A stretch of 53,359 bases of DNA from a virus (IMGVR_UViG_3300045988_063706:1-53359); one strand, 5' to 3'. Shown: positions 3,889-53,359, counted from the stretch's first letter. A program made the numbers and translations. Notes: generated by a model not told the origin, from the letters alone.

Positions 3889-4119
3889 GTGACGAGTCAC
3901 ATTCAAACTCGAGCGAAGTTGAAAGAAATATGCCTTGTTACTGCGTTTGAGGATTTGCTTGACTTGTGTACGTTGAGTGACATCGACAAAGAAATTCTCC
4001 GGTTGCATTACCTAAAGGAGAAAGACTTTCGGTTCATTGGAGACGAACTCGGTTTCAGTGAATCAGCAATAAAGCAAAGGCATAGAAAAGCCCTAAAGAA
4101 ACTCGGAAATATTATCTAA
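3889..4119 (+). CDS. Sigma-70 region-4-like HTH protein (small phage transcription regulator)
   Basis: LSDIDKEILRLHYLKEKDFRFIGDELGFSESAIKQRHRKALKKL is a typical sigma-70 region 4 / ECF-type HTH. At 76 aa it has no region 2. Confidence 0.7.
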   Translation: MTSHIQTRAKLKEICLVTAFEDLLDLCTLSDIDKEILRLHYLKEKDFRFIGDELGFSESAIKQRHRKALKKLGNII

Positions 4120-14348: not shown

Positions 14349-14351
14349 CTC

Positions 14352-15311: not shown

Positions 15312-15368
15312 GGGTCAGCCTCCTTTTCAGAGAGGGAGGGGCTTTTATACCCCTCCCCCGTGGTGGGA

Positions 15369-16085: not shown

Positions 16086-16100
16086 TTTGATAGTTCCTCC

Positions 16101-16298
16101 TTAAAAATTATATGTCTTAACAGATACCGAATCACACGGGAGCAGGTCCACGCACTGACGGAAAACCTTGCCCATGATTTCCGGCCCTGTCTTGACTACA
16201 CCAGAACCACGCCGAATCTCTCTGACGGTTGTAGGCTTGCCATCCTTATCACGATTGTAGATGACACCCTTTGCCCGGAATTGAACGTACTCAGCCAT
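16101..16298 (-). CDS. Hypothetical protein (65 aa)
   Basis: Packed between the ATPase and SSB genes. Confidence 0.5.
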   Translation of the reverse strand: MAEYVQFRAKGVIYNRDKDGKPTTVREIRRGSGVVKTGPEIMGKVFRQCVDLLPCDSVSVKTYNF

Positions 16299-21830: not shown

Positions 21831-23783
21831 TTACTCCTTTTTACTCCTCTTGACGAGTTCCTTAGTAGTTACTCCAATCCAGATAGGTTCACGGGTTCTG
21901 GACTTGTCTCTGCCCTCATGGAAACCGAGGGAACGCATATTTCTCATGAAGCCGTGCTTCTTATGGCTCTCCCGGCCGGACGCATTACAGAATTCGAAAT
22001 ACGCCGAGTAGAGTTCCTCTTTCCGTATGCTATACTCCGGCCCGGTTGCACACTTTTTCTTGATGAATGCGTGGATGCTATCAGAGTCCTGACGCAAGCC
22101 CTCAACCATGCGATTACTCACACGAGTTCTCGGGATTTCCTGCATGGGCAACAGGCTCAGCAAATACGGGATAATCTCGCAAACACTTTCCTCTGAGCAC
22201 AGGTCATCAACATACTCGTTATTGAGGAAAAGTTCGTTATTCATGTAGAGAATTCTCATACGCTTATAGAACGCATTTGATTTCTCCTCCAACTGGAGCG
22301 GAAGTTGGTTAAATGAGAAAATCAGTTTACAGAATGGCACAAAGAAGAACGGTTCTTTACCTTTCTTTTCGTGCATAATCAGGTCTCCGCCGGTGATTTT
22401 CTTGAGGTTCTCAATGCTGGATAGCGGGAGCGAGCCATTATCGCCGCACGAGTTGAGCAACCTGTTATAGAGTTGCGACGGATAGAACCGATGACTCAAT
22501 TCGTGCATACTCAGGGCGGAGGTATTCTCATGCCCTATCATGGTCTCAATGAACCGTAAAAGAACCGACTTTCCCGTGTTGGACTGCCCACATAAAATCA
22601 TAAAGGTCTTGAGGCCATGGTCCAGCGTCAAGCAGTATGCCATATAGTCCAATATCATCTTGACGTCCTCTTTTGCGAGCCGGGTTTTCTTGAAGAACTG
22701 ATATAGCCGGGTCTCCGTGAATGGCTTATACAGGCCGACCTCATGCGGGATTTGCAGGGTCTGGAGGTACTTGCTATCATGAGGAATGAGTTTGGCTTGC
22801 TGGATGTCCCATACCCCATTCTTAAAATTGATGAGGTTCTTATCCCGGTTGAGTTCGCTCGGGTCCTTTTGGATACGAGTGTCATCGACTATGAGCCGAT
22901 ATACCTCCATTATACGGGCCTGAGTGATGAAACTGTCCAGCATAATCATTTCACGAATGGTATTTCGCACAGAACTGGAGGCCTCTACATACACACCGTC
23001 CCGGTACTGGAAGCACTCCCCTCCAAGAACAAACGTGTCACCACGGTTCACAAAGTAGTCACAAATAGCACGAGCATTGATATTCGTTGGATTGCCCTTG
23101 CTATTGTAAATGAGATACGGGTTTTCCCCTTGCTCAGCCGCTTCATATTTACGAGTGTTCCGCAGGATTTTCTCGAGTTCTGCCTCAGCCATGGGGTCTT
23201 CAAAGACGACCTCGTTTATGACGTGAGCCATTTCCTCAATCTGTTCCTCGGACGCACCCCGGTTCTTGTATGCCATCAGGTGAGCGAAAAGGGTAGCATT
23301 CCGGCCGTCACCATTTTTCAACCCGAGGAGGCTTTCCTTTCGGTTTATCATCGGGGTGAATTCGAGCGGTAACTCTGCAACCGTTTTCCGCTTATTGAAG
23401 CGACGGTTCTCTGTACCCCATGGGAGGAGGACGTACCCCTTATTCGCACAACGAAAGTCGCACTTCAAGCCACAGGGCAAAACCATTCCCACTCGCTGAG
23501 GAAACTCCTTATCTGTCTTAAAGTACAGATGGAGGCCTTTTGGGGTCTTGCACATGAGAGTCTTGAGACCGAGCCGCTTTACAATTTCAAGGGCTTGCTC
23601 CTTACCCTCATCAATGTCTACGACAATATACCCGGACCGCACCCACCATCCAATCTGACCTCCGGCGAAAACATGGGCCTCAGCCGCCTTGAGGCTTACA
23701 ATGGCAGAGTCAATCCGTTTCTTGTCAGAACAGCGGACATACGAATCTTGTCCAATGAGAGAGTCAAACTCCTGCAACTTCAA
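21831..23783 (-). CDS. Bifunctional primase-polymerase / SF3 (D5/P4-type) replicative helicase
   Basis: Prim-pol motifs YIVVDIDEG and TPKGLHLYF. C-terminal P-loop LCGQSNTGKSVL with the flanking D5_N/P4-primase-like region. Confidence 0.85.
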   Translation of the reverse strand: MKLQEFDSLIGQDSYVRCSDKKRIDSAIVSLKAAEAHVFAGGQIGWWVRSGYIVVDIDEGKEQALEIVKRLGLKTLMCKTPKGLHLYFKTDKEFPQRVGMVLPCGLKCDFRCANKGYVLLPWGTENRRFNKRKTVAELPLEFTPMINRKESLLGLKNGDGRNATLFAHLMAYKNRGASEEQIEEMAHVINEVVFEDPMAEAELEKILRNTRKYEAAEQGENPYLIYNSKGNPTNINARAICDYFVNRGDTFVLGGECFQYRDGVYVEASSSVRNTIREMIMLDSFITQARIMEVYRLIVDDTRIQKDPSELNRDKNLINFKNGVWDIQQAKLIPHDSKYLQTLQIPHEVGLYKPFTETRLYQFFKKTRLAKEDVKMILDYMAYCLTLDHGLKTFMILCGQSNTGKSVLLRFIETMIGHENTSALSMHELSHRFYPSQLYNRLLNSCGDNGSLPLSSIENLKKITGGDLIMHEKKGKEPFFFVPFCKLIFSFNQLPLQLEEKSNAFYKRMRILYMNNELFLNNEYVDDLCSEESVCEIIPYLLSLLPMQEIPRTRVSNRMVEGLRQDSDSIHAFIKKKCATGPEYSIRKEELYSAYFEFCNASGRESHKKHGFMRNMRSLGFHEGRDKSRTREPIWIGVTTKELVKRSKKE

Positions 23784-24568: not shown

Positions 24569-25036
24569 TCAGTTCCTCACGTCCGGGGCGTCCCAGTCCT
24601 TTTCCCAAATGACAGTGACACCAGAGTCCTCGAAAATACGTTGGGTCTCCTCACTGATTTTCTGTTGCCGCCCATAGATGACCCTCGTGATACCGGCCGA
24701 GACAATGGCACGAGCGCAAGCCTCGCACGGATAGCGAGTGACAAAAATGGTTGTCCCGGTGAGGTCTTCTCTTGCGCCACAGATAGCGTCAACCTCGGAA
24801 TGGATTGCCCTGCAATCAGCCGGGGAACGGTGAGTCTTGTCATTGTCCCCATACTTCTCAATCCGGAGACAGCCCCGATACTTGCAGAGGTCAGGGATTG
24901 CCCGGTTCGCACCAAAACTCACCGCTCGGCCATGCTTCACAATAACGGCCCCGACCGTGACCTTAGTGCAACCAGACATGATTCCGGCATAAATGTTCGC
25001 CATGTCTAACCAGTTACTCCACCCCATTACTCGCAT
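24569..25036 (-). CDS. dCMP deaminase (cytidine/deoxycytidylate deaminase fold)
   Basis: RBS GGAGGAGCATCACAATG. HSEVDAI (H-x-E) and YPCEACARAI (PCxxC) zinc motifs. Confidence 0.9.
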   Translation of the reverse strand: MRVMGWSNWLDMANIYAGIMSGCTKVTVGAVIVKHGRAVSFGANRAIPDLCKYRGCLRIEKYGDNDKTHRSPADCRAIHSEVDAICGAREDLTGTTIFVTRYPCEACARAIVSAGITRVIYGRQQKISEETQRIFEDSGVTVIWEKDWDAPDVRN

Positions 25037-25418
25037 TGTGATGCTCCTCCTCTCTCATAATCCCATCGGCTTGAATGTTGTTCTGGATGCGCTCAACGAT
25101 AACGGCGATGAATGTGGTATTCGTGACCTTGCCGCTGTTCATGCTCACCACATTCCCGAAATACTTCTTGCGAGTGTCCTCCGCCATGTTATTGAATGCG
25201 CTCTCAATAGCGTGGCGAATGGCTCTCTCAACTCTGGACGTGGTAGAGTCCACTTCCTTTGCAATATCAGGGTACAGTTTCCCGGTCATGTTCCGCAGGT
25301 ACTCCCGGTCATTGTAGACCATCTCAACTCCGACCTTGAGATAGTCCCACCCCAAAAGACCGGGGTTTATGCCAACATCCAGCAGGGTATCAGAAATCAT
25401 CCATTGTACGGAAGTCAT
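25014..25418 (-). CDS. Stand-alone Spo0A C-terminal (DNA-binding) domain protein, no receiver domain
   Basis: RBS AAAAGGAGGAAAACTGATG at 25418. [43 protein letters not shown]...[15 protein letters not shown] is near-collinear with B. subtilis Spo0A [43 protein letters not shown]...KPTNSEFIAMVADKL. Confidence 0.9.
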   Translation of the reverse strand: [134 protein letters not shown]

Positions 25419-26518
25419 CAGTTTTCCTCCTTTTGGTAGTTCCACGGCTCAGTCGTGGGATGATAGCAGTTGCGGGGACGACCCGTACCATTCACAGCCT
25501 TGATATATTTGCTCAACTCACAGAAGCAATTCTCAAGGGCCATGACATTCAGACAGCGGTCTCCCTCGGGGCGATACTTGAACAGTTTCTCAGGGTTCCA
25601 TCCAAACAGACGAGCATAGTCCCCGGCCTGGAGCGCAATAAAGTACTCGTCAATGTTGTCCCGGAGGAAGAACAGGGCCTCCTCATGGGTCATACCGCCG
25701 TAGTCACTGAACACAAGGTCAAGACCCCGCTTGCACCCCGGCCCCGCAACAGTAAACTCATTCTCGGAGAACGGAAAGTCCTCAATATAGGTCAGGTCAA
25801 CGAATACCTGATAGGCAAGGAATGAGGCAAACCCACGAATCTCCCGGATGATATTGTATGCGGCCTCCTGGTCTTTGGCTTTCATCAGGCGGCGGAACAC
25901 CTTGCGCTCTTTTAACCATGGACCGATATGGAATACCCGCAGGGGGATGTCCGGCTCGTAGTCCTTGAATTTCTTCCCCATTTCCTCAGACGGAGCACGA
26001 CTAAAGCCCTCCCCGTCCGGGAATTTCCATGCGTACTTTGTGCCGCCCTGATTATATGCGCTGGACCACCACTTGCGGTCAGGGCTCTCAATGAGGAGCC
26101 GCTTATAGGTCGGGCGAACTGCTTCCTTTAGGGCCAGCCCATCATAGATTTCATCAGCCGACCACGGCCCCCCGAAATCCGTGAATGTGTTCGGGTTATT
26201 CCAGGACCGGAGCAGGAATGTATTCAGCACCTTTTCCTCCAGAGTGAGTTCAGGGTTCGTGGAAACCAGTTCAATCAGCGCACGGCTGACACGGTCATCC
26301 TCCCGGAATACGTTGGTAAACTTGTACTCCTTAAGAACCGGGTTCTTAGTCCACGGCTGAGGTTTACCGAGGATATCCTTGCGAACGTGAATACGATACC
26401 GCTCAACAATGAAGTCCCGGAGATGCGCCGTGTTCTCCTCATTGAGGTATGGTTCCGCCTTTCTGATGCGCTTTTCGTTGACGCCACAGTAGGCAACGTC
26501 TCTCGGCTTTGTCTGCAT
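25418..26518 (-). CDS. Candidate DNA base hypermodification protein (alpha-glutamyl/putrescinyl-thymine pyrophosphorylase-like, aGPT-Pplase-like)
   Basis: 366 aa. PQPWTKNPVLKEYKFTNVFREDDRVS matches my memory of the PWT..pIL..YRF.NV.RE.DrvT signature of that family, and FLAYQVFVDL lies downstream. From memory only, not searched. Confidence 0.45.
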   Translation of the reverse strand: MQTKPRDVAYCGVNEKRIRKAEPYLNEENTAHLRDFIVERYRIHVRKDILGKPQPWTKNPVLKEYKFTNVFREDDRVSRALIELVSTNPELTLEEKVLNTFLLRSWNNPNTFTDFGGPWSADEIYDGLALKEAVRPTYKRLLIESPDRKWWSSAYNQGGTKYAWKFPDGEGFSRAPSEEMGKKFKDYEPDIPLRVFHIGPWLKERKVFRRLMKAKDQEAAYNIIREIRGFASFLAYQVFVDLTYIEDFPFSENEFTVAGPGCKRGLDLVFSDYGGMTHEEALFFLRDNIDEYFIALQAGDYARLFGWNPEKLFKYRPEGDRCLNVMALENCFCELSKYIKAVNGTGRPRNCYHPTTEPWNYQKEEN

Positions 26519-32161: not shown

Positions 32162-32584
32162 TCAGTTTTGCTCCAGCAGGGTTCCGTCAACGTATACGTC
32201 AACCTCGTCGTCATAGTCCTCGCCCTTTTCCCGGATATAGTAGATGTCCGAGTCTATATTTCGGGTGATTTTCCAGAGGTCACCATAGAACTCGTCTCCG
32301 CAGGGAGTGGAAATACAGGCCGCCGAGATTTTGTTGATACGAATAGATGAAACCTTGCTTTCGCCGGTATAGTCGGAGCCGTCAATGTAATAGATGAACA
32401 GGGAGAAGTCATCGTCCTGGAGGAACTGATACTCACCTTTGCAGAACGGGCCATTCTCGCCGAGTTCGTTGTAGTCATAAAGGTTCTTGTCGAATGCCCG
32501 GAGAGACTTATAATGGATGAACTGAACACCATTGTCATCCTCGAGAATACGATAGGAACGGTCTTCGTAACTAATGCGTAACAT
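32162..32584 (-). CDS. Hypothetical early protein (140 aa)
   Basis: RBS cagaaaggagccgaatATG at 32584. The 309-aa track ORF extends through the promoter region and was trimmed. Confidence 0.6.
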   Translation of the reverse strand: MLRISYEDRSYRILEDDNGVQFIHYKSLRAFDKNLYDYNELGENGPFCKGEYQFLQDDDFSLFIYYIDGSDYTGESKVSSIRINKISAACISTPCGDEFYGDLWKITRNIDSDIYYIREKGEDYDDEVDVYVDGTLLEQN

Positions 32585-32714
32585 ATTCGGCTCCTTTCTG
32601 AAAGAACTCGAGCGAGGTTGCCTTTCGCAACTATTTGTCGCCTTGATACTCCGGAGAGTTGGGTACGACCATTGAGTATTCTGTTTTATCCTCGCTGTTG
32701 TTCTTTCTGACATT

Positions 32715-32743
32715 ATACTACCACAAGGTCGAACAGAATGCAA
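32715..32743 (-). promoter_or_regulatory. Leftward early promoter (conserved family)
   Basis: Minus strand reads TTCTTGCAT, 17 nt (ending TTGTGG), TAGTATaatgtcagaaag. Confidence 0.7.
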
Positions 32744-32822
32744 GAATAATTCTTTGAAAAGATGCACAAAAGAATGAAGAATAAATTGTTCACTTTTATT
32801 CAACAGAAATAGAAGAAAGTTC

Positions 32823-32851
32823 TTGCTTTTAGAATAAAGGTATGGTATTAT
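32823..32851 (+). promoter_or_regulatory. Rightward early promoter (conserved family), divergent from 32715..32743
   Basis: TTGCTT, 17 nt (ending GTATGG), TATTATactatcagaaagg. Confidence 0.65.
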
Positions 32852-32881
32852 ACTATCAGAAAGGAACAGGAGGTCAATCAA

Positions 32882-33043
32882 ATGTATAGCAAGGTCATCA
32901 ACGGTATCTCTTATCTCTGCCAGGACTTCTTCCAGATTGCTGTCGCTGAGAAGTTCGCATACGAAAACAAGGCCCTCAACATTGAGACTCGTCAACTCAA
33001 AAACGGCTTCACTTATTACAGAGTTATCGTTCGGGCCGAGTAA
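32882..33043 (+). CDS. Small hypothetical protein (53 aa)
   Basis: Not in the track. RBS gaaaggaacaggaggtcaatcaaATG. Confidence 0.5.
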   Translation: MYSKVINGISYLCQDFFQIAVAEKFAYENKALNIETRQLKNGFTYYRVIVRAE

Positions 33044-33059
33044 AGGAAGGAGAACAACA

Positions 33060-33275
33060 ATGTATAGAGCGGGAATGTTTAGTGTTCTCACAGAAACAGC
33101 CGATGGTCAATTTCATAGGAGCCGTTTCTTTGAGACCGAACAGGAAGCGAGAACCTATGGGAACACTCAGTGGAAGAAAGCAAGTGTCATTTCCGTTGAG
33201 ATTTACAAGACCGGGTTTTATAAGAAGCGTCGTCACTCTGTACTGGTTGCAAGTGCAAGAAAGAAAGGAGAATAA
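33060..33275 (+). CDS. Hypothetical protein (71 aa)
   Basis: RBS aaggaaggagaacaacaATG. The track ORF was trimmed. Confidence 0.55.
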   Translation: MYRAGMFSVLTETADGQFHRSRFFETEQEARTYGNTQWKKASVISVEIYKTGFYKKRRHSVLVASARKKGE

Positions 33276-33481: not shown

Positions 33482-33847
33482 ATGAAGAAACTGAAAACGA
33501 AAGAGGAACTACTGGAGTACATTGGGGAGAACTGCTTCATTCGCAACTCCGATGGAACGGAAATCGGCTCCACGTCAGGCGGGTTCGCTCCACTGTTCTA
33601 CAAATGTGCGGATGACCTTGAGGGTACGCCGCTCAAGGACTGGGACGAGGCCTATGACCTTTATATCCAGCACAACACACGGCGCAACCTCGGTCAAGAC
33701 CTGCTCCGATATGGGGTCATCCTCAAGGTGAACAACTTCCAAACGGAGAAAGGCTACTACACCATCCGCCTCATCCGGTACGAGGGAGCCATTTACTTCC
33801 ACAAGATGAAAAACGGTATGCAGGTTGAAATCAAAAAGTTGAATTGA
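33482..33847 (+). CDS. Hypothetical protein (121 aa)
   Basis: RBS gaggaggagtaaagcATG. Followed by a terminator. Confidence 0.6.
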   Translation: MKKLKTKEELLEYIGENCFIRNSDGTEIGSTSGGFAPLFYKCADDLEGTPLKDWDEAYDLYIQHNTRRNLGQDLLRYGVILKVNNFQTEKGYYTIRLIRYEGAIYFHKMKNGMQVEIKKLN

Positions 33848-33860
33848 ACAGGAGGAAAGG

Positions 33861-33894
33861 GGGCCTCGGCAAATAGCCGGGGTCCTTAAATTTT
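33861..33894 (+). terminator. Rho-independent terminator
   Basis: Stem gggcctcgg/ccggggtcc (two G-U pairs), 7-nt loop, then ttaaatttt. Confidence 0.6.
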
Positions 33895-33908
33895 GGCAAC
33901 AGGGTCTG

Positions 33909-34050
33909 AAAAATTGGCAATTTATTCAACGAAAATCGTCAAAAATTGGCATTTTATTCGCGACTTTCGTCCAAAAATTGACATCTAAATAAGAATAAAT
34001 TTAGAATGAAAATACTGCCAAATTTTTTATTTTCCTATTGTGTGTAAACG
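33909..34050 (+). repeat. Iteron cluster A: three 19-nt boxes at exact 32-bp phasing, plus a shared tail
   Basis: aaaaattggcaatttattc (33909), aaaaattggcattttattc (33941), aaaaattgacatctaaa (33973), followed by attttcctattgtgtgtaaacgga. Confidence 0.85.
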
Positions 34051-34181
34051 GAGGACAGGGATTTATTCCAAAATGCAAAAGTCTCGAACTTTTTGGTAAA
34101 ATTAGGTAATCTGCATAAAATTTTTATAATTATACAGTCCATTACACGGGCTGGACAAAAATTTTGCATGATTTTGACGTG

Positions 34182-34325
34182 AAAAATTGGCAATTTATTC
34201 AGCGAGTTTGGACAAAAATTGGCAATCTATTCTTGGAAAATCGTCAAAAATTGACATCTAAACAAGAATAAATTTAGATAGCCTTTAGATGTCAATATTT
34301 TATATTTCCTATTAGTTATAAATGG
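34182..34325 (+). repeat. Iteron cluster B: a diverged duplicate of cluster A, 273 bp downstream
   Basis: aaaaattggcaatttattc (34182), aaaaattggcaatctattc (34214), aaaaattgacatctaaa (34246), again at 32-bp phasing, followed by atatttcctattagttataaatgga. Confidence 0.85.
34251..34295. repeat. Perfect 12-bp palindrome arms ttgacatctaaa / tttagatgtcaa with a 21-nt spacer
   Basis: Arms at 34251..34262 and 34284..34295. Confidence 0.9.
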
Positions 34326-34403
34326 AATATGTATAAATATATAAATATAAATGAATACATAAAATATATATATAAAAGTAAGGGGCCAAAAAACGGCAAA
34401 AAA

Positions 34404-34448
34404 TTGACATCTAAAGTTAGAAAGGATTTTGAATAAATTAGATGTCAA
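34404..34448. repeat. Second ttgacatctaaa / (a)ttagatgtcaa palindrome
   Basis: Arms at 34404..34415 and 34437..34448 (11 of 12 match). The same 12-mer also occurs at 33978..33989. Confidence 0.85.
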
Positions 34449-34645
34449 TTTTTGCAAATTTTTAAGAATAAAAAACCAAATTTTCGCAGGGTGGACGAGA
34501 ATAAATTGCCAAATTTTTTGGACAAAAAGCCAAATTTTACACGCAAAAAGTCCAAAAGTTCGAGACTTTGGTCGTCACAACCTTTTAGGGCCTGCGCCCT
34601 GGAGCTGTCCTAATCGGACTTGGAACTCGTGTCGTCCCTGGAGCC

Positions 34646-34687
34646 GGGTTTAGGGTTTGGGCATGGTGCAGGGTTAGGGGCATAGGG
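34646..34687 (+). repeat. G-run cluster (six GGG runs, TTAGGG-like), G-quadruplex-capable
   Basis: GGGtttaGGGtttGGGcatggtgcaGGGttaGGGGcataGGG. Confidence 0.8.
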
Positions 34688-34720
34688 TGAGGACGCTCTG
34701 TCGTCCCTGAGGACGCTCTG
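34688..34720 (+). repeat. Short direct repeats upstream of terS: tgaggacgctctg x2, and gtcgtccctg x2 with 34631..34640
   Basis: The 13-mer occurs at 34688 and 34708. The 10-mer occurs at 34631 and 34700. Confidence 0.8.
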
Positions 34721-34754
34721 GCGAGACTTTTACCGTGGAGGGTAAAACAGGGGC

Positions 34755-34783
34755 TTTACAAATTCGAGACTCGGGCTTATAAT
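34755..34783 (+). promoter_or_regulatory. Promoter of the packaging/late operon
   Basis: TTTACA, 17 nt, TATAAT, 19 nt upstream of terS. Confidence 0.65.
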
Positions 34784-34801
34784 GGGGTTATCGAGAGGAG
34801 G

Positions 34802-35506
34802 ATGCTCATGGGTGCATTCAAGAAATTGGAGGGTAGATATCTCTATGTAGATATGTCAAAAATTCATGTGCCCTCATGGAAAATTCGTGAAGTACAAAAG
34901 GCCGCACACGCAAAAACAAGGCTACTCAAAAAGATTGACCCCTTTGCCCGGTGCGTGGGCAGAAAAAGAACATTTGAGACTCCTGAGCAACTCAGAGCCG
35001 CTTGCGACGACTACTTCAAAAGTCAGGAATGTTTCGTCTATGACAAATGGGGACAGCCTATCAAAGACCCCATGACCGGCGAATTCATAAAAACCACTCA
35101 TCCGCTCACGATTGCAGGGTTAGGGCTTCATATCGGGGTTGCAACTTCTACACTCAGGAGGTACAAGGCAATCGCAGAAAGCGGGACTGTTCCATACGAA
35201 TTCGCTGAGGTCGTCATGGAAGCCCTGCAAAAGATTGAATCCTATGCAGAACGTCGAGGATACGATAAGGACGGACAGCGTGGTTCTCAGTTTGTTCTGC
35301 AAGCTGGATTCAATTGGAACACTAAGAAAGAAGAGAGTGAAAGCCGCCGTCTTTCTGTTGAATCTAAAATTGCTCTGGAAAAGTTGAAGATGCAACAGGA
35401 AGAGCATGAACTCAAGATGAAAATGCTTCAAGCCGGGTTGGATGGAGATGAGGATAACGATATCAGCATAACCATCACCAGAGCGAAAAGAAAGGATGAG
35501 GAATAA
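34802..35506 (+). CDS. terS: Terminase small subunit
   Basis: CDDYFKSQE...HPLTIAGLGLHIGVATSTLRRYKAI is the HTH pattern of Firmicute-phage small terminases. Charged coiled-coil C-terminus. Lies upstream of terL. Confidence 0.7.
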   Translation: MLMGAFKKLEGRYLYVDMSKIHVPSWKIREVQKAAHAKTRLLKKIDPFARCVGRKRTFETPEQLRAACDDYFKSQECFVYDKWGQPIKDPMTGEFIKTTHPLTIAGLGLHIGVATSTLRRYKAIAESGTVPYEFAEVVMEALQKIESYAERRGYDKDGQRGSQFVLQAGFNWNTKKEESESRRLSVESKIALEKLKMQQEEHELKMKMLQAGLDGDEDNDISITITRAKRKDEE

Positions 35507-36452: not shown

Positions 36453-36671
36453 ATGTCAAGAAAGAAAGGGCCGAACCCATTTAGACCCCGGACCATGGTT
36501 TGGGCCTTGTATGAGGAGGACTGGTCTGACCTGACCGTTCACCAGATTGCGGAGGTGTTTGCCTCCTCTGATGAATCCATTTATGCCGCTATGCGCCTCA
36601 TCAAGCGGAAGACCGGGTACATGGTTCCTCATGTGAGGCTTTCCTCCAAGGGGGTTCCGGTATGCAAGTAG
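36453..36671 (+). CDS. Small putative HTH protein (72 aa)
   Basis: RBS gagaggtgattttATG. LTVHQIAEVFASSDESIYAAMRLIKRKTG looks HTH-like. Overlaps the terL start. Confidence 0.5.
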   Translation: MSRKKGPNPFRPRTMVWALYEEDWSDLTVHQIAEVFASSDESIYAAMRLIKRKTGYMVPHVRLSSKGVPVCK

Positions 36672-37990
36672 AAAAGGCAGTCAATCCCCGGTTCGAGGAC
36701 TTCATATTTGACTGGGATTATCGGGAATACCTGCTCGTCGGTGGGTACGGCTCAAGCAAGAGTTACCATATAGCGCTCAAACTCATTCTCAAGGCTCTTG
36801 AGGAGAAACGAAAGATTCTGGTCGTGCGTGAGGTCTACGATACCATTCGTGAGTCATGCTTTGACCTGTTCCTGGAAATCCTGGAAGACCTTGACTTGCT
36901 CGACCCGAATAGCAACCGCAAGCGGAGCAAAAAGGTTCGGTATAGAACGAGTCCCATGCAACTCATTTTCCCGAATGGGAGCAAGGTTATTTTCAAGGGC
37001 ATGGACAAACCGGGCAAACTCAAGTCAATCAATGGTGTTTCCATTGTGTGGCTGGAAGAGGCCTCAGAAATCAAGTATGCAGGCTATAAGGAGTTGAAAG
37101 GCCGTCTCCGTCATCCGAGCCTGAGCCTACACTTTATCCTCAGCACAAACCCGGTCGGGACTGAGAATTGGGTGTATCAGCACTTCTTCAAGCGCACGAA
37201 TGATGACGGCTCTGTAACCGTTATTCTGGACGACAAGCGGCTCTATCGCAAGCATACTATCGTAAAGAATGGTGTGTACTACCACCACTCCGTCGTTGAT
37301 GACAACCTATTCGTCCCGAAGAGTTACGTCCGCACACTGGATGAAATGCAGGACTATGACCCTGACCTGTATCGTGTGGCACGGCTGGGTCAGTTCGGCT
37401 TGAACGGTGTTCGGGTTCTGCCTCAGTTCCAGGTCGCCGCCTCCCATGCCCAAGTTATGCGGGCCGTGAATGGTATTCCCTCCGCATTCAAATTCACAGG
37501 GTTCGACTTTGGCTTTGAGACCTCGTACAATGCAGTCGTCAGAATGGCGGTGGATGACCGGGAAAAGGTGCTCTATATCTATTGGGAGTACTACAAGAAC
37601 CATATGACAGACGACCAGACCGCCGCCGAACTGGAAGAGTTGGGGTTGCAGGGTGAACAAATTATAGCCGATAACGAAGACCCGAAAGCCATTCAATACT
37701 ATCGTCAGATGGGGTTCCATATCCGGCCTTGTCACAAGTGGGCGGGGTCTCGCCTTGCGAATACAAGAAAGGTGAAGCGATTCAAGAAAATCATTTGTTC
37801 TCCGGACTGCATAAATACCATTCGTGAACTCTCGACGCTCACCTATGCAAAAGACCAGAAAGACAACCTTGTATTCGACCAGTTCAACATCGACCCGCAT
37901 ACATTCTCCGCTATATGGTACGGCCTGGATAATTACACGGTTGCGGACGTCAAGGACGAACTGAGGAACAGTAGAAAGGGGGCCGCATAA
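36662..37990 (+). CDS. terL: Terminase large subunit (PBSX/Terminase_3-like)
   Basis: Walker A VGGYGSSKSY and VWLEEASEI (Walker B region). C-terminal nuclease-domain length is as expected. Confidence 0.9.
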   Translation: MQVEKAVNPRFEDFIFDWDYREYLLVGGYGSSKSYHIALKLILKALEEKRKILVVREVYDTIRESCFDLFLEILEDLDLLDPNSNRKRSKKVRYRTSPMQLIFPNGSKVIFKGMDKPGKLKSINGVSIVWLEEASEIKYAGYKELKGRLRHPSLSLHFILSTNPVGTENWVYQHFFKRTNDDGSVTVILDDKRLYRKHTIVKNGVYYHHSVVDDNLFVPKSYVRTLDEMQDYDPDLYRVARLGQFGLNGVRVLPQFQVAASHAQVMRAVNGIPSAFKFTGFDFGFETSYNAVVRMAVDDREKVLYIYWEYYKNHMTDDQTAAELEELGLQGEQIIADNEDPKAIQYYRQMGFHIRPCHKWAGSRLANTRKVKRFKKIICSPDCINTIRELSTLTYAKDQKDNLVFDQFNIDPHTFSAIWYGLDNYTVADVKDELRNSRKGAA

Positions 37991-40406: not shown

Positions 40407-40453
40407 GGGCTTTTTGAAAATTTCTCAGAAAAATTTTGAAAGGAGGTTTTCGT

Positions 40454-42250
40454 ATGGCAGAATGGACACTTGCTGACGCTACTCAAATCAGGGCAAACCT
40501 AACGAAAGAGCAGGAAGACGAGATATCCATGCTCTATCGCAAGGTCTATTTGCAGGTGCGAAAGCAAATGCTCGCTATTCCTAAAGACGGAACGACCTCG
40601 CAACAGCTTCAAAGGCAATATCTGGACAAACTGCATAAACAACTCGACGAGGCGTACAAGTCTCTCGGCGTGGGTCTTGAAAAGCAGATTCAAAAGGAGG
40701 CAAAGAAAGCCGCTCAAGGCGTGGTAGAGTCCTCCAAAAAGATGACGAATAAACTCGGGTTCAAGATTGAGGGTGCATACTCATTCGTTCCAAAAGATGT
40801 CATCAACGCTTTAGTGACTGGGCAGGTATATGGAGGAAACTGGAGCCTGAGTGGTGCTATCTGGGCCGACATCGACAAGAAGCAGTCCGACATCAGTAAA
40901 GTTATCGCTGAGGGCCTTGCGGCGAATAAAAGTGCATACGATATCGCAAAAGACTTGGAAACCTACGTTGACCCTAAAGCGAAAAAGGAATGGGACTGGA
41001 GCAAGGTTTATCCGGGCACAAGCAAAAAGGTCGACTACAATGCTCAGCGGCTGGCTCGTACTATGATTTCCCATGCCTACCAACAGAGTCTCGAACGGGT
41101 ATGCAAGAATAATCCATTTGTTGAGGGGTTTATCTGGCAATCCGCACACTCAAGTCGGGTTTGTCCTATCTGCGCCGAGCGGGATGGGCAGTTCTACAAA
41201 AAGGGTGAACTCCCGCTTGACCATCCGAATGGAATGTGTACCTTTATCGCAAGTATTCAAGGCTCTATGAATGATGTCGCTGACCGGCTTGCTGATTGGG
41301 CAAATGGCAAGAGTGACCCCGAACTGGACAAATGGTACGAGGATATGACCGGGGGCAAGGCTACTCCGGTATTCAACGAGGAACAAAAGAAATGGCTGGA
41401 GCCTCTTGGCTACTCGGTGAATAATATGCCTACAAACTTCAAAGAGTTTGCTACTCAGTTATCCTTTGACCAACAGAGCGAGCTCCTTTCCCTTGCCGGT
41501 GGCTCATGGAGCAGTCCTCATCCATATCAGCTCATGGAGAAATACTACAAAGAGCACTTGCTCAGTGTGAGGGCCGGGGTTTCTGCTATACAGAAGCCGA
41601 AAAAGCCTCCTATCGGTATGAGCAAGGAACTCATGGAGGAACTGTTCAGAAAGCAGGATTACTCTGTCATTGGAAAACTTTCCGAAGCGACGAATAAGTG
41701 GTGGAAGTCCTTAACTCAAGAGGAGCGAGATGCGGTTGAGGCCTATACTGGAAGTTCCTACATTGATATGAATAACTTCCTGCGTGGCATTGATAAAAAT
41801 ATCGCAGACTATATGAAGAAGCGAATTCAGGACTGCCGCTCCGCTCTTAACAAGGTAGAAAGCCCCTTTGACATCGTTGTGGGCCGTGGCTCCAGCACAA
41901 GCAGTCTCCGGGGAATGCTTGGAAAGCCTAAAGGCATGAAAACCGCTATTGATGATGGCGAACTTGCAGATTGGGTGAATAAGAACAAGGACTCTTTGAT
42001 TGGCTCTATTGCAAGCGACAAGGGTTTCCTCTCAACGACCCCTGTTGAGGGCGGCGGGTTCTCGGGCGATATCACTTATCGAATTTTTGTGCCTAAAGGC
42101 AGTCATGGAGCCTATGTTGACGAGTACAGTAGACATCAGGGTGAGCGAGAGCTCCTGTTGCAAGCCGATGGAAAGTTTAGAGTGACTGACCTTGTCGCCT
42201 CCTATGGGAATAGGGTTACGGTCTATATGGAGTACATTCCGCAAAAATAA
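40454..42250 (+). CDS. Minor head protein (SPP1 gp7 / Mu F-like) fused to a C-terminal ADP-ribosyltransferase (R-S-E type) domain
   Basis: gp7 core ARTMISHAYQQS...WQSAHSSRVCPICAERDGQFY...LDHPNGMCTF. ART region from about nt 41690: AYTGSSYIDMNNFLRG, VVGRGS (Arg), GFLSTT (STS-like), QGERELLL (ExE). Confidence 0.8.
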   Translation: MAEWTLADATQIRANLTKEQEDEISMLYRKVYLQVRKQMLAIPKDGTTSQQLQRQYLDKLHKQLDEAYKSLGVGLEKQIQKEAKKAAQGVVESSKKMTNKLGFKIEGAYSFVPKDVINALVTGQVYGGNWSLSGAIWADIDKKQSDISKVIAEGLAANKSAYDIAKDLETYVDPKAKKEWDWSKVYPGTSKKVDYNAQRLARTMISHAYQQSLERVCKNNPFVEGFIWQSAHSSRVCPICAERDGQFYKKGELPLDHPNGMCTFIASIQGSMNDVADRLADWANGKSDPELDKWYEDMTGGKATPVFNEEQKKWLEPLGYSVNNMPTNFKEFATQLSFDQQSELLSLAGGSWSSPHPYQLMEKYYKEHLLSVRAGVSAIQKPKKPPIGMSKELMEELFRKQDYSVIGKLSEATNKWWKSLTQEERDAVEAYTGSSYIDMNNFLRGIDKNIADYMKKRIQDCRSALNKVESPFDIVVGRGSSTSSLRGMLGKPKGMKTAIDDGELADWVNKNKDSLIGSIASDKGFLSTTPVEGGGFSGDITYRIFVPKGSHGAYVDEYSRHQGERELLLQADGKFRVTDLVASYGNRVTVYMEYIPQK

Positions 42251-42253
42251 CTC

Positions 42254-42282
42254 TTGCATTCTGTTTCTTTCTATGGTATAAT
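42254..42282 (+). promoter_or_regulatory. Sigma-A-type promoter (conserved early-type family) inside the structural module
   Basis: CTCTTGCAT, 17 nt (ending CTATGG), TATAAT. Confidence 0.7.
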
Positions 42283-42306
42283 GCAAGTGGAAAGGAGTGA
42301 GACTAT

Positions 42307-42492
42307 ATGTCAAGCAAATTCGAATGGACAGAAGAGACGGCTCCGAAGCCGGTACGCATGGAAGACCTCGTCTGTAAAGACTGCTTCCATAGGAGCGGAC
42401 GAACTGACATCTGTGCTGAGTATCAGGAACTAAAGCCTTTCTCAGTGCTGGATGGTGGTTCTTGTCCACACTACAAAAAGGAGAAGAAATGA
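42307..42492 (+). CDS. Small zinc-ribbon protein (61 aa)
   Basis: RBS gaaaggagtgagactatATG. CKDCFH...ICAEY...SCPHY. Confidence 0.55.
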   Translation: MSSKFEWTEETAPKPVRMEDLVCKDCFHRSGRTDICAEYQELKPFSVLDGGSCPHYKKEKK

Positions 42493-43316
42493 TAAAGAAC
42501 AAGGACAAAATTCTCGGTTCCCTGATTGGGTTTGCTATTGGCGACGCTATGGGTGCAACGACCGAGTTCATGAGCAAGGAGCAAATTCAAAAGCAATACG
42601 GAAAAGTCGACCATATCATGGGCGGCGGTTGGTTAAATCTGCGCCCCGGCTCCGTCACTGATGATACGCAAATGTCCCTCGTAGTTTATAGGGCTATGCG
42701 GGACACGGCTGGTCATCCTGAGCGGACGCTCGAGACGATGTGCGCCGGGTTTAGGGCGTGGGCGGACAGCAACCCGCCTGACATTGGTGGGGCCTGTCGA
42801 CGGGCGATTTACGGAACAAAGTCGCTGAAACCCCGTGCGTGGATATGGCATAACAAGCGGCGACAGGAGGCAACCAAACACAAGGACCTCGGCAACGGTG
42901 GCCTCATGCGCTGTCTTGTGCCTCTGCTGGCGGGTGACTTACGACTGGCAAAGGCTCAGTCTTATCTCACGCATTCCGTTGACACTCACGACACCTATAT
43001 CGAACTCTACTACGAAGCCCTCCAGGATGCCTTTCTTGGGCTGAGGCCTGTATATCCGAAGCACATGGAGCCGACGGGTCATGTCATCAATACTGAGCGA
43101 AATGCTGAATATTGGTGTTATGCTACGACTTCATTCGAGGAGGCTATTATTGGGGCCGTAAATGATGGGGGCGACGCTGATACCATAGCCGCTCTCACTG
43201 GAGGCCTTGCCGGTGCTCTGTATGGGTTTGAGGCAATTCCATTTGAGTGGGTAAATGCCCTCGAACCAGAGGTCGCCGATGAACTTTGTGACTGTGCAGA
43301 CTGGCTCATAAAATGA
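42489..43316 (+). CDS. ADP-ribosylglycohydrolase (ARH/DraG family)
   Basis: GSLIGFAIGDAMGATTEF, SVTDDTQMSL, and the C-terminal GGDADTIAALTGGLAGALYG. Confidence 0.9.
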   Translation: MIKNKDKILGSLIGFAIGDAMGATTEFMSKEQIQKQYGKVDHIMGGGWLNLRPGSVTDDTQMSLVVYRAMRDTAGHPERTLETMCAGFRAWADSNPPDIGGACRRAIYGTKSLKPRAWIWHNKRRQEATKHKDLGNGGLMRCLVPLLAGDLRLAKAQSYLTHSVDTHDTYIELYYEALQDAFLGLRPVYPKHMEPTGHVINTERNAEYWCYATTSFEEAIIGAVNDGGDADTIAALTGGLAGALYGFEAIPFEWVNALEPEVADELCDCADWLIK

Positions 43317-52335: not shown

Positions 52336-52348
52336 AAAGGAGGTTATC

Positions 52349-53359
52349 ATGGCTGTCAACGAATTACTGTATAATAGTAAAACCTTTGAACGGCTTAGAA
52401 AAGCCTCTTGCAATCTAAGCGAGTCCCTTTCTTTGAGTGCATTACCCATAGATACTCTGAGTGCAACTGTGGTAGAAGAAACAGACGTTGCAGATTTGAA
52501 AGAATATGAGTACGGTTCAATCGTTCAATACAAGCATAACAATATTCTCATCGGGAAATTTTATCTGGAAAAGATTGAACAGACTGGAAAATGGGATTGG
52601 ACATTTTCCTGTATATCTCCTATTGGTCTTCTTGAAAAAGACAACCATTGGGGAGGAATTTATACTGGTCAAACTGCTGAAGAGGTTCTTGCTGATGTCA
52701 TTGGTGGGGTTATACCTTACACTATTGATGATGGGTTAAAAACCGTTCTTGTATATGGTTGGTTGCCAAAAGGTACTCGAAGGGATAACCTGAGAAATGT
52801 TCTTTTTGCTATCAATGCAAGAGTTATTAAAAATGATGCAGGGGATTGTCATTTTGTTGCTCTTTCTGAGGGAGAACCTTATGAACTCCCTATCAGTAAA
52901 TTCTATTTAACGGGTGGGAGTGTTACTAAAGGCTCCCCCGCTACTCAAGCACAAATTACAGAGCACTCTTACTATCAATCCCCCGGAGCAACTACTGAGA
53001 CAATTTTTGAGGGTGTTGCAACTGGTTCAAGTTTTATAACTCCTAAAGGAACAAGTATCTCGCAAGCAACTCTTCTTGAATGGGATAAACCATACTATGA
53101 CTATCAGGTTACAGGCTCAACTATCTTAGAGTCTGGAGTGAACTACGTTGTAGTCTCTCAATCTGCTAACTGTACTATAACAGCGAAAGCCTATGCACAC
53201 TCTGAACGAGTTTTGTTTCGAAATGGTGAGGAGAACGAGTCTCCTAATGTCGTAAATTCAAATGCTTGTCACCTTGTAAATTTAACAAATTCAGAACTCG
53301 TTGTAGACCGAGTCATTGCATTTTACGGTCATGCGAAAAAGACGGTGGTTGATATAATT
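52349..53359 (+). CDS. N-terminal part of the tail fibre / tip protein. The ORF has no stop in the window and continues at base 1 (about 736 aa joined).
   Basis: RBS gaaaggaggttatcATG at 52349. Not in the ORF track because it has no stop. In frame with 1..1255 through the 55-bp overlap (…LVVDRVIAFYGHAKKTVVDII…). Confidence 0.8.
   Translation, partial: MAVNELLYNSKTFERLRKASCNLSESLSLSALPIDTLSATVVEETDVADLKEYEYGSIVQYKHNNILIGKFYLEKIEQTGKWDWTFSCISPIGLLEKDNHWGGIYTGQTAEEVLADVIGGVIPYTIDDGLKTVLVYGWLPKGTRRDNLRNVLFAINARVIKNDAGDCHFVALSEGEPYELPISKFYLTGGSVTKGSPATQAQITEHSYYQSPGATTETIFEGVATGSSFITPKGTSISQATLLEWDKPYYDYQVTGSTILESGVNYVVVSQSANCTITAKAYAHSERVLFRNGEENESPNVVNSNACHLVNLTNSELVVDRVIAFYGHAKKTVVDII
53305..53359. 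repeat. 55-bp terminal direct repeat (copy of 1..55)
   Basis: Exact identity with bases 1-55. Confidence 0.95.

What the first reader, a model, noticed from the sequence alone, without database searches (positions are those of the whole stretch)
33900..34575. About 675 bp of AT-rich non-coding DNA with two clusters of three iterons at exact 32-bp phasing, TTGACATCTAAA palindromes and flanking inverted repeats: candidate origin
Seen directly:
- Boxes aaaaattggcaatttattc, aaaaattggcattttattc and aaaaattgacatctaaa start at 33909, 33941 and 33973.
- The same series starts again at 34182, 34214 and 34246. The spacing is 32 bp, about three helical turns, and the cluster offset is 273 bp.
- The 12-mer ttgacatctaaa occurs three times in direct orientation and twice inverted, forming palindromes at 34251..34295 and 34404..34448.
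- An inverted iteron lies at 34498..34519.
- A 16-bp inverted pair (34078..34093 and 34554..34569) brackets the core.
- A nearly pure A/T stretch (34297..34380, tataaatatataaatataaatgaatacataaaatatatatataaaag) lies between them.

Established knowledge: phased iterons beside an AT-rich unwinding element are the classic architecture of theta-type origins.

Inference: this is the ori recognised by the prim-pol/helicase or another early protein. Two alternatives exist. It could be a packaging or partition-like site, since it lies just upstream of terS. Or it could be a set of small promoters (TTGACA, 17 nt, TTAGAT-like) for non-coding RNAs.
Basis: partly seen in the sequence, partly recalled or inferred. 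Interest (0 to 1): 0.65.

Follow-up and report, generated by a model that had tools for sequence, protein, structure and literature searches.

The report
Probable replication origin of gut phage
The only long non-coding stretch of this 53-kb phage genome carries about fifteen phased repeat boxes around the easiest-to-melt DNA in the genome. It is most likely where the phage's own primase-helicase starts DNA replication, a familiar type of origin that has not been proven here.

Summary
All listed boxes are at the stated coordinates, occur nowhere else in the window (expected by chance 0.02-0.3), and sit in the only large non-coding gap (33848-34801) of a complete circular 53.3-kb siphophage genome.

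The anatomy is richer than reported:
- Two clusters each hold three direct boxes at 32 bp plus one inverted box.
- An 80-bp stretch of 90% A+T follows and is the least stable duplex in the genome (z about 6).
- A third cluster has mostly inverted boxes.

The same layout recurs in 18 related uncultured phage genomes, although box sequences and neighbouring genes vary.

The phage encodes a primase-helicase homologous to SaPI5 PriRep5, a self-loading SF3 helicase. It has a modelled C-terminal winged helix. SaPI origins also have iterons in opposite orientation on either side of an AT-rich centre.

Best reading, confidence 0.5: a replication origin of that kind, with a duplicated cluster that resembles P4 crr.

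Rivals:
- A pac site. terS starts 230 bp downstream, but four relatives have genes inserted in between.
- A promoter/operator array. A σA-like promoter at box 3 is found in only 6 of 11 genomes.

Covariation tests could not identify the binding protein. This is a new member of a known kind, of moderate interest.

The parts
33860..33894 (+). Terminator-like GC hairpin plus T-rich tail. It ends the small rightward operon (ORF 33482-33847) and marks the left edge of the non-coding region.
   Evidence: Read from the sequence. The equivalent hairpin is present in relatives (alignment A3, columns 1-45). The simple terminator scan did not call it.
33909..33989 (+). Cluster I: three direct boxes at 33909-33927, 33941-33959 and 33973-33989, with 32-bp start-to-start spacing.
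   Evidence: The same 32/33-bp triplet occurs in 9 of 10 related genomes.
33978..34007 (+). σA-type promoter-like site, TTGACA-18-TAGAAT, whose -35 element is the core of box 3.
   Evidence: 11 of 12 matches. An equivalent box3-TAGAAT arrangement is found in 6 of 11 genomes.
34014..34025 (-). Inverted box (AAATTTGGCAGT on the - strand) that closes cluster I, 39 bp after box 3.
   Evidence: An inverted box 39-49 bp after box 3 is present in all relatives.
34030..34048 (+). Conserved motif TTTTCCTATTGTGTGTAAA that follows the inverted box of cluster I. Function unknown.
   Evidence: only two good matches in the window, both here. It is conserved as CCTATTRTGTGCAAACGG in relatives.
34078..34093 (.). 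Near-palindromic 16-mer AAAGTCTCGAACTTTT, operator-like, copy 1.
   Evidence: I15, I21. L001 has TTCACGAA at the equivalent places.
34182..34262 (+). Cluster II: three direct boxes at 34182-34200, 34214-34232 and 34246-34262, with 32-bp spacing, 273 bp after cluster I.
34284..34300 (-). Inverted B-box that closes cluster II and forms a 17-nt inverted pair with 34246-34262.
   Evidence: (I13).
34297..34380 (.). AT-rich candidate DNA-unwinding element. It begins with the second copy of the CCTATT motif (34304-34322).
   Evidence: 90% A+T over 34297-34376, and dG of the 60-bp core is -54.8 against a genome mean of -84.3 (sd 5.0). An equally unstable 60-mer (-48 to -58) lies at the same place in 10 genomes.
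34399..34537 (-). Cluster III: one direct box (34399-34415), then inverted boxes at 34437-34453, 34466-34484 (weak), 34499-34517 and 34526-34537 (weak).
   Evidence: Orientation bias pooled over 10 genomes: 64 direct / 25 inverted left of the AT core and 18 / 27 right of it.
34554..34569 (.). Near-palindromic 16-mer, operator-like, copy 2 (reverse complement of 34078-34093).
   Evidence: I15.
34583..34750 (+). G+C-rich element (TTTTAGGGCCTGCGCCCTGG ... GTCCTAATCGGAC ... TTTTACC-N5-GGGTAAAA). It always stays next to the terS promoter and is a separate module from the box array. It may be a pac or regulatory site.
   Evidence: In L001, L013, L015 and L016 a small gene lies between the box array and this element.
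34755..34783 (+). Promoter-like site TTTACA-17-TATAAT for terS, with a third copy of the operator-like motif in its spacer (34760-34771).
   Evidence: 11 of 12. A promoter-like site lies just upstream of terS in the relatives read. Motif copy: (D10, I21).
34802..35506 (+). Small terminase (terS), first gene of the rightward late arm.
   Evidence: PF16677 GP3_package and phrog_606.
21831..23783 (-). Primase-helicase with PriCT_1, D5_N, SF3 ATPase and a C-terminal winged helix. Candidate initiator, 10.1 kb from the box array.
   Evidence: Pfam. Homology to SaPI5 PriRep5 7OLA, E 1e-13 to 1e-15. AlphaFold2 model of residues 531-650 has pLDDT 85, and its best fold match is RFX1 DBD 1DP7.

Best explanation
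The region is the phage's origin of replication, of the kind used by self-loading SF3 primase-helicases.

Proposed mechanism (inferred):
- The C-terminal winged-helix domain of the 650-aa primase-helicase (21831-23783) binds the roughly 19-bp boxes.
- Cluster II (boxes pointing right) and cluster III (boxes mostly pointing left) place helicase assemblies on either side of the 80-bp AT-rich element at 34297-34376.
- That element melts, and two forks leave in opposite directions, co-oriented with the two divergent gene arms.
- Cluster I is a near-copy of cluster II lying 273 bp upstream without its own AT-rich element. It acts as an auxiliary binding array (enhancer or copy control), as crr does for P4.
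- In this genome a σA-type promoter built on box 3 may add transcriptional activation.

What is shown: the anatomy, its uniqueness in the genome, its conservation across the family, the low duplex stability, and the homology and fold of the candidate initiator.

What is inferred: which protein binds the boxes, that melting and initiation occur here, and the role of cluster I.
For: 1. Uniqueness. 33848-34801 is the only large non-coding stretch of a complete circular genome (55-bp end overlap; gaps). The boxes occur nowhere else.

2. Anatomy.
- Direct boxes are phased at 32 bp.
- The least stable duplex of the genome lies between arrays with opposite orientation bias (pooled 64/25 against 18/27, Fisher p 6e-4).

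3. Conservation.
- The same tripartite layout is present in 10 Logan/ENA relatives and 8 IMG/VR contigs.
- It persists although box cores, flanking genes and terS (down to 37% identity) differ.

4. Candidate initiator.
- The primase-helicase aligns with SaPI5 PriRep5 (7OLA) from the D5_N region into the C-terminal domain (E 1e-15).
- Its C-terminal domain models as a winged helix (pLDDT 85). Best matches are RFX1-DNA 1DP7, the ASFV PrimPol C-terminal domain and Orc1/Cdc6 winged helices.

5. Precedent.
- SaPI Reps bind iterons through that domain. Their origins have an AT-rich centre with at least two iterons on each side pointing in opposite directions (PMC9371898).
- The same logic was applied to Enterococcus phage Abitsa (PMC13517437).

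6. Variability. The C-terminal domain holds the most variable stretches of an otherwise highly conserved protein: 1.77 and 1.32 bits against a mean of 0.57.

7. Genome layout.
- The region sits where the two gene arms diverge.
- The cumulative GC-skew minimum lies at 32-33 kb and the maximum at about 9 kb, nearly opposite on the circle.
Against: - There is no direct evidence of binding, melting or initiation.
- The array is 10.1 kb from the primase-helicase gene, whereas SaPI origins abut rep.
- Boxes are 17-19 bp at 32-bp spacing, not 5-10-bp iterons.
- Covariation failed. The recognition helix is invariant, and the type of wing does not predict the type of box: L013's wing resembles L002's, but its boxes resemble the window's.
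- GC skew is confounded by gene orientation.
- The array lies immediately upstream of terS in every family member, which also fits a packaging site.
- A triple AAAAATTGGCA box at 33-bp phasing also occurs upstream of an ATPase gene in Collinsella chromosomes. Phased boxes of this sequence are therefore not specific to origins.
Confidence: 0.5

Rival explanations
1. The region is a packaging recognition (pac) site. The small terminase ring binds the phased, A-tract-rich boxes, wraps the DNA and directs the first headful cut in or near the AT-rich centre.
For: - terS (GP3_package), a Terminase_3-type terL and an SPP1-type portal indicate headful packaging.
- The array lies upstream of terS, in the same orientation, in all 19 genomes.
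- From my own knowledge: known pac/cos sites (SPP1 pacL/pacR, P1 pac, lambda cosB) also use repeated terS sites flanking a cut site.
Against: - In L001, L013, L015 and L016 a small gene lies between the array and terS; in L001 and L016 a promoter-like site and a terminator hairpin flank it. A different G+C-rich element always stays with the terS promoter.
- terS diverges to 37-39% identity in the L008 group, while the box core AAAAATYGG and the primase-helicase (78-81% identity) stay conserved.
- About 15 boxes spread over 650 bp, with the genome's least stable DNA in the middle, is larger than the known pac sites I recall.
- Contig ends that fall in the array are repeat-induced assembly breaks, not termini.
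Confidence: 0.15
2. The region is a transcriptional control array. The boxes are -35/UP-like promoter elements or operator sites for a phage regulator (sigma-like proteins, the Spo0A_C-only protein or the small HTH protein upstream of terL). Together they time the early-to-late switch or produce non-coding RNAs.
For: - TTGACA-18-TAGAAT lies at 33978-34007.
- A box3-N17/18-TAGAAT promoter-like site is present in 6 of 11 genomes.
- The region lies between the early and late arms.
- The phage encodes a σ70 region-4 protein, a Spo0A_C protein and a variable small HTH protein.
- Operator-like near-palindromes are shared with the terS promoter spacer.
- The Collinsella triple box lies next to a gene start.
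Against: - The boxes are absent from every other intergenic region of the genome.
- The -10 partner is missing in 5 of 11 genomes. Box cores in L008 (TCGGCG) and L002 (CTGACC) are poor -35 elements.
- The sequence between clusters I and II is not conserved, so there is no conserved RNA. There is no Rfam hit above threshold.
- No 0A box lies in the region.
- The orientation switch across a conserved AT-rich core is not explained.
Confidence: 0.2
3. The region is a partition (centromere-like) site or another plasmid-maintenance site of a non-integrating prophage.
For: From my own knowledge, clustered phased direct repeats are typical of parC/parS-type centromeres.
Against: - No ParA/ParM/TubZ-type NTPase, integrase or repressor was found among the ORFs scanned.
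- The gene content is that of a virulent phage with its own replisome.
Confidence: 0.03

Closest known systems
Replication origins of Staphylococcus aureus pathogenicity islands (SaPI ori, bound by Rep/PriRep5 self-loading SF3 helicases; PMC9371898), and the origin predicted on that model for Enterococcus phage Abitsa (PMC13517437)
   Same: - The element encodes a homologous primase-helicase: D5_N, SF3 ATPase and a C-terminal winged helix. PDB 7OLA is the only solved sequence homologue.
- Repeated sites lie on both sides of a central AT-rich stretch, with opposite orientation on the two sides.
   Different: - Boxes are 17-19 bp at 32-bp phasing, not 5-6-bp or 10-bp iterons.
- There are about 15 boxes in three clusters spread over 650 bp.
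- The array is 10 kb from the helicase gene, not immediately downstream of it.
- An extra duplicated cluster is present.
- No binding data exist.
Bacteriophage P4 ori and crr, bound by the alpha primase-helicase (domain organisation in PMC2777425; ori/crr details from my own knowledge, not checked in a paper here)
   Same: - One polypeptide combines primase, SF3 helicase and a C-terminal winged helix.
- There are two cis elements carrying the same repeats. P4 crr is, as I recall, two direct 120-bp repeats with three iterons each, much like clusters I and II here.
   Different: - The primase domain here carries PriCT_1, and the family is labelled P4-family primase by JGI. P4 alpha has a DnaG-type primase.
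- P4 iterons are 8-bp octamers.
- P4 ori and crr are, as I recall, several kb apart and flank the alpha gene. Here all clusters lie within 650 bp.
Classical iteron origins (lambda ori, plasmid oriV of F, P1, RK2, pSC101; review PMC4980987, seen only as a title and abstract, not read)
   Same: Several sites of about 19 bp repeated in helical phase next to an AT-rich unwinding element.
   Different: - No DnaA box lies in the region.
- No initiator gene overlaps or adjoins the site.
- Inverted arrays on the far side suggest double loading of a self-loading helicase rather than a Rep/DnaA/DnaB-DnaC pathway.
pac sites of headful phages (SPP1 pacL-pacC-pacR, P1 pac; from my own knowledge)
   Same: The site lies next to terS, and repeated A-tract-rich sites flank a central segment.
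   Different: - It is much larger.
- It is separable from terS by inserted genes in relatives.
- Box conservation follows the replication protein more closely than terS.

Membership tests
SaPI/PICI-type origin for a self-loading SF3 helicase | The element encodes an SF3 helicase-initiator with a C-terminal winged-helix DNA-binding domain. | tested here: met
   - Pfam: PriCT_1, D5_N, DUF5906.
- 7OLA PriRep5: E 1e-13 and 1e-15, aligned through the C-terminal domain.
- AlphaFold2 model has pLDDT 85 and a winged-helix fold. 1DP7 is the best match at E 7e-4.
SaPI/PICI-type origin for a self-loading SF3 helicase | A central AT-rich region with at least two repeats on each side pointing in opposite directions. 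| tested here: met
   - By the box pattern, left of 34297-34376 there are 7 direct and 4 inverted boxes; right of it, 1 direct and 4 inverted.
- Pooled over 10 genomes: 64/25 against 18/27.
- AT-core stability.
SaPI/PICI-type origin for a self-loading SF3 helicase | Iterons are short (5-6 nt; 10 nt in Abitsa). | tested here: not met
   Boxes are 17-19 nt with a conserved 9-10-nt core, AAAAATYGGY, spaced 32-33 bp apart.
SaPI/PICI-type origin for a self-loading SF3 helicase | [quoted passage not shown] | tested here: not met
   The gene ends at 21831 and starts at 23783. The array begins at 33909, so 10.1 kb separates the gene's nearer end (23783) from the array, with about 25 genes in between.
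SaPI/PICI-type origin for a self-loading SF3 helicase | The initiator binds the repeats and melts the AT-rich region. | not testable with these tools
   Needs EMSA, footprinting or a melting assay. The covariation surrogate was uninformative.
Classical iteron (theta) origin | At least three direct repeats of about 17-22 bp in helical phase beside an AT-rich element. | tested here: met
Classical iteron (theta) origin | Host DnaA boxes next to the iterons. | tested here: not met
   No TTATCCACA with up to 1 mismatch lies inside 33848-34801. The genome-wide count equals chance.
P4 ori/crr | A second cis element made of duplicated repeat clusters that carry the same iterons as ori. | tested here: inconclusive
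   Clusters I and II are near-copies (D1, 77-85% identity), and this is conserved in relatives. The comparison with crr rests on my memory of the P4 literature.
Headful pac site | It lies in or beside the terS gene. | tested here: met
   The last box ends 264 bp before the terS start codon, and 230 bp separate the finding's right edge (34569) from it. In four relatives a gene is inserted in between.
Headful pac site | It is bound by terS, and the first packaging cut maps there. | not testable with these tools
   No reads or termini data are available. Contig ends in the array are repeat-induced.
σA promoter cluster | Each box is paired with a -10 hexamer at 16-18 bp, and this pairing is conserved. 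| tested here: not met
   - Only box 3 of cluster I qualifies in the window.
- Box-3 promoters occur in 6 of 11 genomes.
- Boxes 1 and 2 have no -10 partner.

The most novel reading that the evidence does not exclude
The array is a three-part origin in which each of three inverted box pairs (33973/34014, 34246/34284, 34399/34437) nucleates a helicase assembly. The duplicated, AT-core-less cluster I works as a crr-like enhancer or handcuffing (copy-control) element. That would be a P4-style two-element origin operating in a virulent siphophage family of gut bacteria with hypermodified thymidine. It might also double as the entry point for headful packaging.
Probability: 0.15. Interest if true: 0.55.

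Novelty: new member of a known kind. Interest (0 to 1): 0.35.

Why it matters
If confirmed, this would give a defined origin and a cognate initiator for a large, so far uncultured family of roughly 50-kb gut phages. That family comprises hundreds of protein clusters in public metagenomes.

It would also extend the SaPI-type 'self-loading helicase plus inverted iterons around an AT core' design to long, 32-bp-phased boxes placed far from the helicase gene. The box array is a convenient marker for recognising and orienting these genomes.

There is a practical point for assembly: the near-identical clusters I and II break assemblies at this spot.

It does not open a new class of mechanism.

Tried and rejected
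1. DNA similarity to GenBank phages and PLSDB plasmids found no match. The nearest deposited phage, bajarodcaudo virus 5, has only 230 bp upstream of its terS. I read no sequence there, so it gave no information on the array.

2. A terS-based scan of IMG/VR with the single protein found nothing.

3. The motif CCTATTRTRTGYAAACGG in IMG/VR gave only chance hits.

4. Other candidate origins were excluded.
- The gaps after polA in relatives are tRNA clusters.
- 52336-53359 is a gene that crosses the window junction.
- 14349-16290 is coding on the minus strand.

5. Covariation of box sequence with terS, with the primase-helicase winged helix and with the small HTH protein was uninformative.
- The recognition helices of terS and of the primase-helicase are identical in the window and L002.
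- L002 keeps canonical AAAATTGGT boxes beside its CTGACCA variants.
- The type of wing does not predict the type of box.

6. Contig ends in the array are not physical termini. The ends abut or overlap across clusters I and II, which is a repeat-induced break.

7. Rfam gave nothing at gathering thresholds. With relaxed thresholds there were only two miRNA-like hairpin hits far below threshold.

8. DnaA boxes and Spo0A 0A boxes are absent from the region.

9. The genome-contig scan did not reveal a host or a prophage copy. The hits, mostly one Collinsella locus, share no homology with the window.

Full report
**Observation**

- Pattern searches place the A-box (AAAAATTGGCAATTTATTC, at most 1 mismatch) at 33909, 33941, 34182 and 34214 on the + strand and at 34499-34517 on the - strand.
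- They place the B-box (AAAAATTGACATCTAAA) at 33973, 34246 and 34399 on the + strand and at 34284-34300 and 34437-34453 on the - strand.
- No further copy exists in the 53,359-base window. Chance expectation is 0.02-0.34.
- Spacing is 32 bp, and the second cluster starts 273 bp after the first.
- The 16-nt pair 34078-34093 / 34554-34569 is perfectly complementary.

- One of the two inverted 12-mers has a mismatch.
- The non-coding stretch is 33848-34801, which is 954 bp.
- There are more boxes than listed: an inverted one at 34014-34025 and weak inverted ones at 34466-34484 and 34526-34537.

**Context**

The window is a complete circular assembly with an exact 55-bp end overlap. It is a siphophage.
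- The rightward late arm carries terS (34802-35506, GP3_package), terL (36662-37990, Terminase_3), an SPP1-type portal, head proteins and a tape measure. The arm continues across the window junction to about 8.8 kb.
- The leftward arm runs from about 33 kb to 9 kb and carries a replisome and nucleotide metabolism genes. These include DNA polymerase A, a 650-aa primase-helicase, a PD-(D/E)XK nuclease, AAA_24, DUF669 and an SNF2 helicase. They also include a thymidylate-synthase-family protein, dUTPase, dCMP deaminase, a 5-hmdU DNA kinase and a TAGT-like glycosyltransferase.
- No integrase, repressor or partition NTPase was found among the ORFs scanned.
- The region under study is the only large ORF-free stretch. 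Other apparent gaps are a gene crossing the window junction or are coding on the other strand.

**Anatomy**

From left to right:
- A terminator-like hairpin (33860-33894).
- Cluster I: three direct boxes at 32 bp, then an inverted box 39 bp on, then the motif TTTTCCTATTGTGTGTAAA.
- A non-conserved spacer of about 130 bp.
- Cluster II, with the same design.
- An AT-rich element, 34297-34376, that is 90% A+T. Its 60-bp core has dG -54.8 kcal/mol against a genome mean of -84.3 (sd 5.0), the extreme of the genome.
- Cluster III: one direct box, an inverted box 40 bp on, and three more inverted boxes.
- A G+C-rich element.
- A near-consensus σA promoter (34755-34783) and terS.

**Relatives**

terS, the 5-hmdU kinase and the primase-helicase each have hundreds of homologues on roughly 50-kb metagenomic contigs.

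I read the region in ten Logan/ENA genomes: L001, L002, L003/L005, L006, L007, L008 and L013-L016. A triple-box pattern then found eight more family contigs in IMG/VR.

All of them have the same tripartite design.
- Direct boxes are spaced 32-33 bp apart in 9 of 10 genomes.
- An inverted box follows 39-51 bp after the third direct box.
- A 60-bp core of dG -48 to -58 is present.
- Orientation is biased: 64 direct and 25 inverted boxes left of the core, 18 and 27 right of it (Fisher p 6e-4). The genomes are related, so this p-value overstates independence.
- Box cores vary around AAAAATYGGY: TTGGCA/TTGACA here, TTGGCT in L001, TTGGTA/TTGGCG in several, TCGGCG in the L008 group, and CTGACCA beside TTGGTCA in L002.
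- In four relatives a small gene sits between the array and the G+C-rich element. That element always stays with the terS promoter. The array and the terS-proximal element are therefore separate modules.

Contigs that end in the array do so between clusters I and II, and their ends abut or overlap. These are repeat-induced assembly breaks, not genome termini.

**Who binds the boxes?**

The primase-helicase has PriCT_1, D5_N and SF3 ATPase domains, plus weak RFX/Pox_D5 hits at its C-terminus.
- Its only solved sequence homologue is SaPI5 PriRep5 (7OLA). The alignment runs from residue 203 to 615 and enters the C-terminal domain (E 1e-15).
- An AlphaFold2 model of residues 531-650 (pLDDT 85) is a winged helix. 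The closest folds are RFX1 bound to DNA (1DP7, TM 0.74), RFX5, the ASFV PrimPol C-terminus and the Orc1/Cdc6 winged-helix domains.

According to PMC9371898:
- SaPI Reps are self-loading helicases.
- Their C-terminal winged helix recognises iterons.
- Their origins have an AT-rich centre with iterons on each side pointing in opposite directions.
- Two hexamers are thought to load, one on each side.

PMC13517437 applied the same reasoning to Enterococcus phage Abitsa. The layout of cluster II, the AT core and cluster III fits this scheme. Cluster I resembles what I recall of P4 crr.

Across 171 family members the protein is very conserved (mean column entropy 0.57 bits). The exception is two stretches of the C-terminal domain, at 1.32 bits and at 1.77 bits (the wing and the tail), and the wing also varies in length.

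I could not turn this into a covariation argument.
- The recognition helix is invariant.
- Box cores are nearly the same in most genomes.
- L013 has a wing like L002's but boxes like the window's.
- terS is equally uninformative at short range, because its HTH is identical in the window and L002.
- At long range terS falls to 37-39% identity while the box core and the primase-helicase (78-81% identity) persist. This mildly favours the replication protein.

**Rivals**

A pac site remains possible.
- The phage packages by headful, and the array always precedes terS.
- Against it: the inserted genes, the size of the array, the AT core, and the separate conserved element next to terS.

A promoter/operator array is partly true.
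- The window has TTGACA-18-TAGAAT on box 3 of cluster I.
- Such a site exists in only 6 of 11 genomes. Boxes 1 and 2 never have a -10 partner, and the L008 and L002 box cores are poor -35 elements.
- No conserved RNA is evident.
- DnaA and Spo0A boxes are absent from the region.
- Partition is unlikely, because no partition genes were found.

One cautionary result: a scan of bacterial genomes found the triple box at 33-bp phasing upstream of an AAA_14/DUF4143 ATPase gene in many Collinsella genomes. These loci share no homology with the phage. Phased AAAAATTGGCA boxes are therefore not diagnostic of an origin by themselves.

**Verdict**

The origin interpretation is the best supported (confidence about 0.5) but rests on architecture, conservation and homology of the candidate initiator, not on function.

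This is a new member of a known kind: an iteron/AT-core origin for a self-loading SF3 primase-helicase. Its particular features are long boxes, strict 32-33-bp phasing, three clusters and a position remote from the helicase gene. Interest is moderate.

Noticed in passing
window 1-55 and 53305-53359: The first and last 55 bases are identical. The window is therefore a complete circular assembly of about 53,304 bp, and a tail gene runs across the junction (52350 to 1255).
   Followed up: yes
window 25014-25445 (-): A 143-aa protein consists only of the Spo0A C-terminal DNA-binding domain (PF08769, E 8e-30), with the SRVERAIRHAIE signature and no receiver domain. Homologues are present in most relatives. 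It may mimic active Spo0A in a spore-forming host.
   Followed up: partly
window 11616-15311 and 24569-26518 (-): This gene set suggests hypermodified thymidine in the phage DNA. It comprises a thymidylate-synthase-family protein, a kinase, dUTPase, a radical SAM/SPASM protein, a TAGT-like glycosyltransferase, dCMP deaminase and the 5-hmdU DNA kinase helical domain.
   Followed up: partly
window 34583-34750: A G+C-rich element is conserved next to the terS promoter in all relatives (TTTTACGGCCTGCNCCCTGG, GTCCTAATCGGAC). It includes a palindrome, TTTTACC-N5-GGGTAAAA, just upstream of the -35. The two halves of the palindrome change together between genomes (TTTACTG/CAGTAAA in L001, TTTACT/AGTAAA in L002). 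It may be a pac or activator site.
   Followed up: partly
window 34078-34093, 34554-34569, 34760-34771: There are three copies of a near-palindromic motif, AAGTCTCGAACTT, and one lies in the spacer of the terS promoter. L001 has TTCACGAA at the equivalent places. They look like operators of a dimeric regulator.
   Followed up: partly
window 36453-36671 (+): A protein of about 70 aa with an HTH-like sequence pattern (no Pfam match) overlaps the start of terL. It is present in L001-L004 and varies in its putative recognition helix (41-71% identity). The GP3_package terS lies 1.2 kb further upstream.
   Followed up: partly
window 40436-43316 (+): A head-morphogenesis (Mu F-like) protein is fused to an ADP-ribosyltransferase exoenzyme domain (PF03496, E 7e-29). 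The next gene encodes an ADP-ribosylglycohydrolase-like protein.
   Followed up: no
L006 18042-19539, L007 15437-16871, L008 17636-18674: Relatives appear to carry tRNA genes (T-arm-like repeats such as GGTTCGAGTCCC) between the polA-side genes and the PD-(D/E)XK nuclease gene; no tRNA scan was run on them. The window has no tRNA gene.
   Followed up: partly
L019/L021 and L023/L024 (IMG/VR contigs 3300045988_181833 and _171166): Assemblies of family members break between clusters I and II, so box clusters sit at both contig ends. This could be mistaken for terminal repeats or physical termini.
   Followed up: yes
L056 5436-5512 and about 90 other Collinsella loci (L029-L148): Three copies of AAAAATTGGCA[AG]ATAGATTTG.CCCTAATCATAC at 33-bp phasing lie immediately upstream of an AAA_14 + DUF4143 ATPase gene. 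The locus is conserved across many Collinsella genomes and has no homology to the phage.
   Followed up: partly
window 32590-33080: The 309-aa ORF 32162-33091 is probably real only in its C-terminal 140 aa. The AT-rich part (32667-32866, 69% A+T) likely holds the divergent early promoters, as in the 180-230-bp divergent gaps of relatives.
   Followed up: no
window 3889-4119 (+); L003 4638-5201; L008 4457-4975; L024 279-800: The window encodes a 76-aa σ70 region-4-only protein. Relatives encode σ70 region-2 proteins, either right after terS or as the first early gene next to the box array.
   Followed up: no
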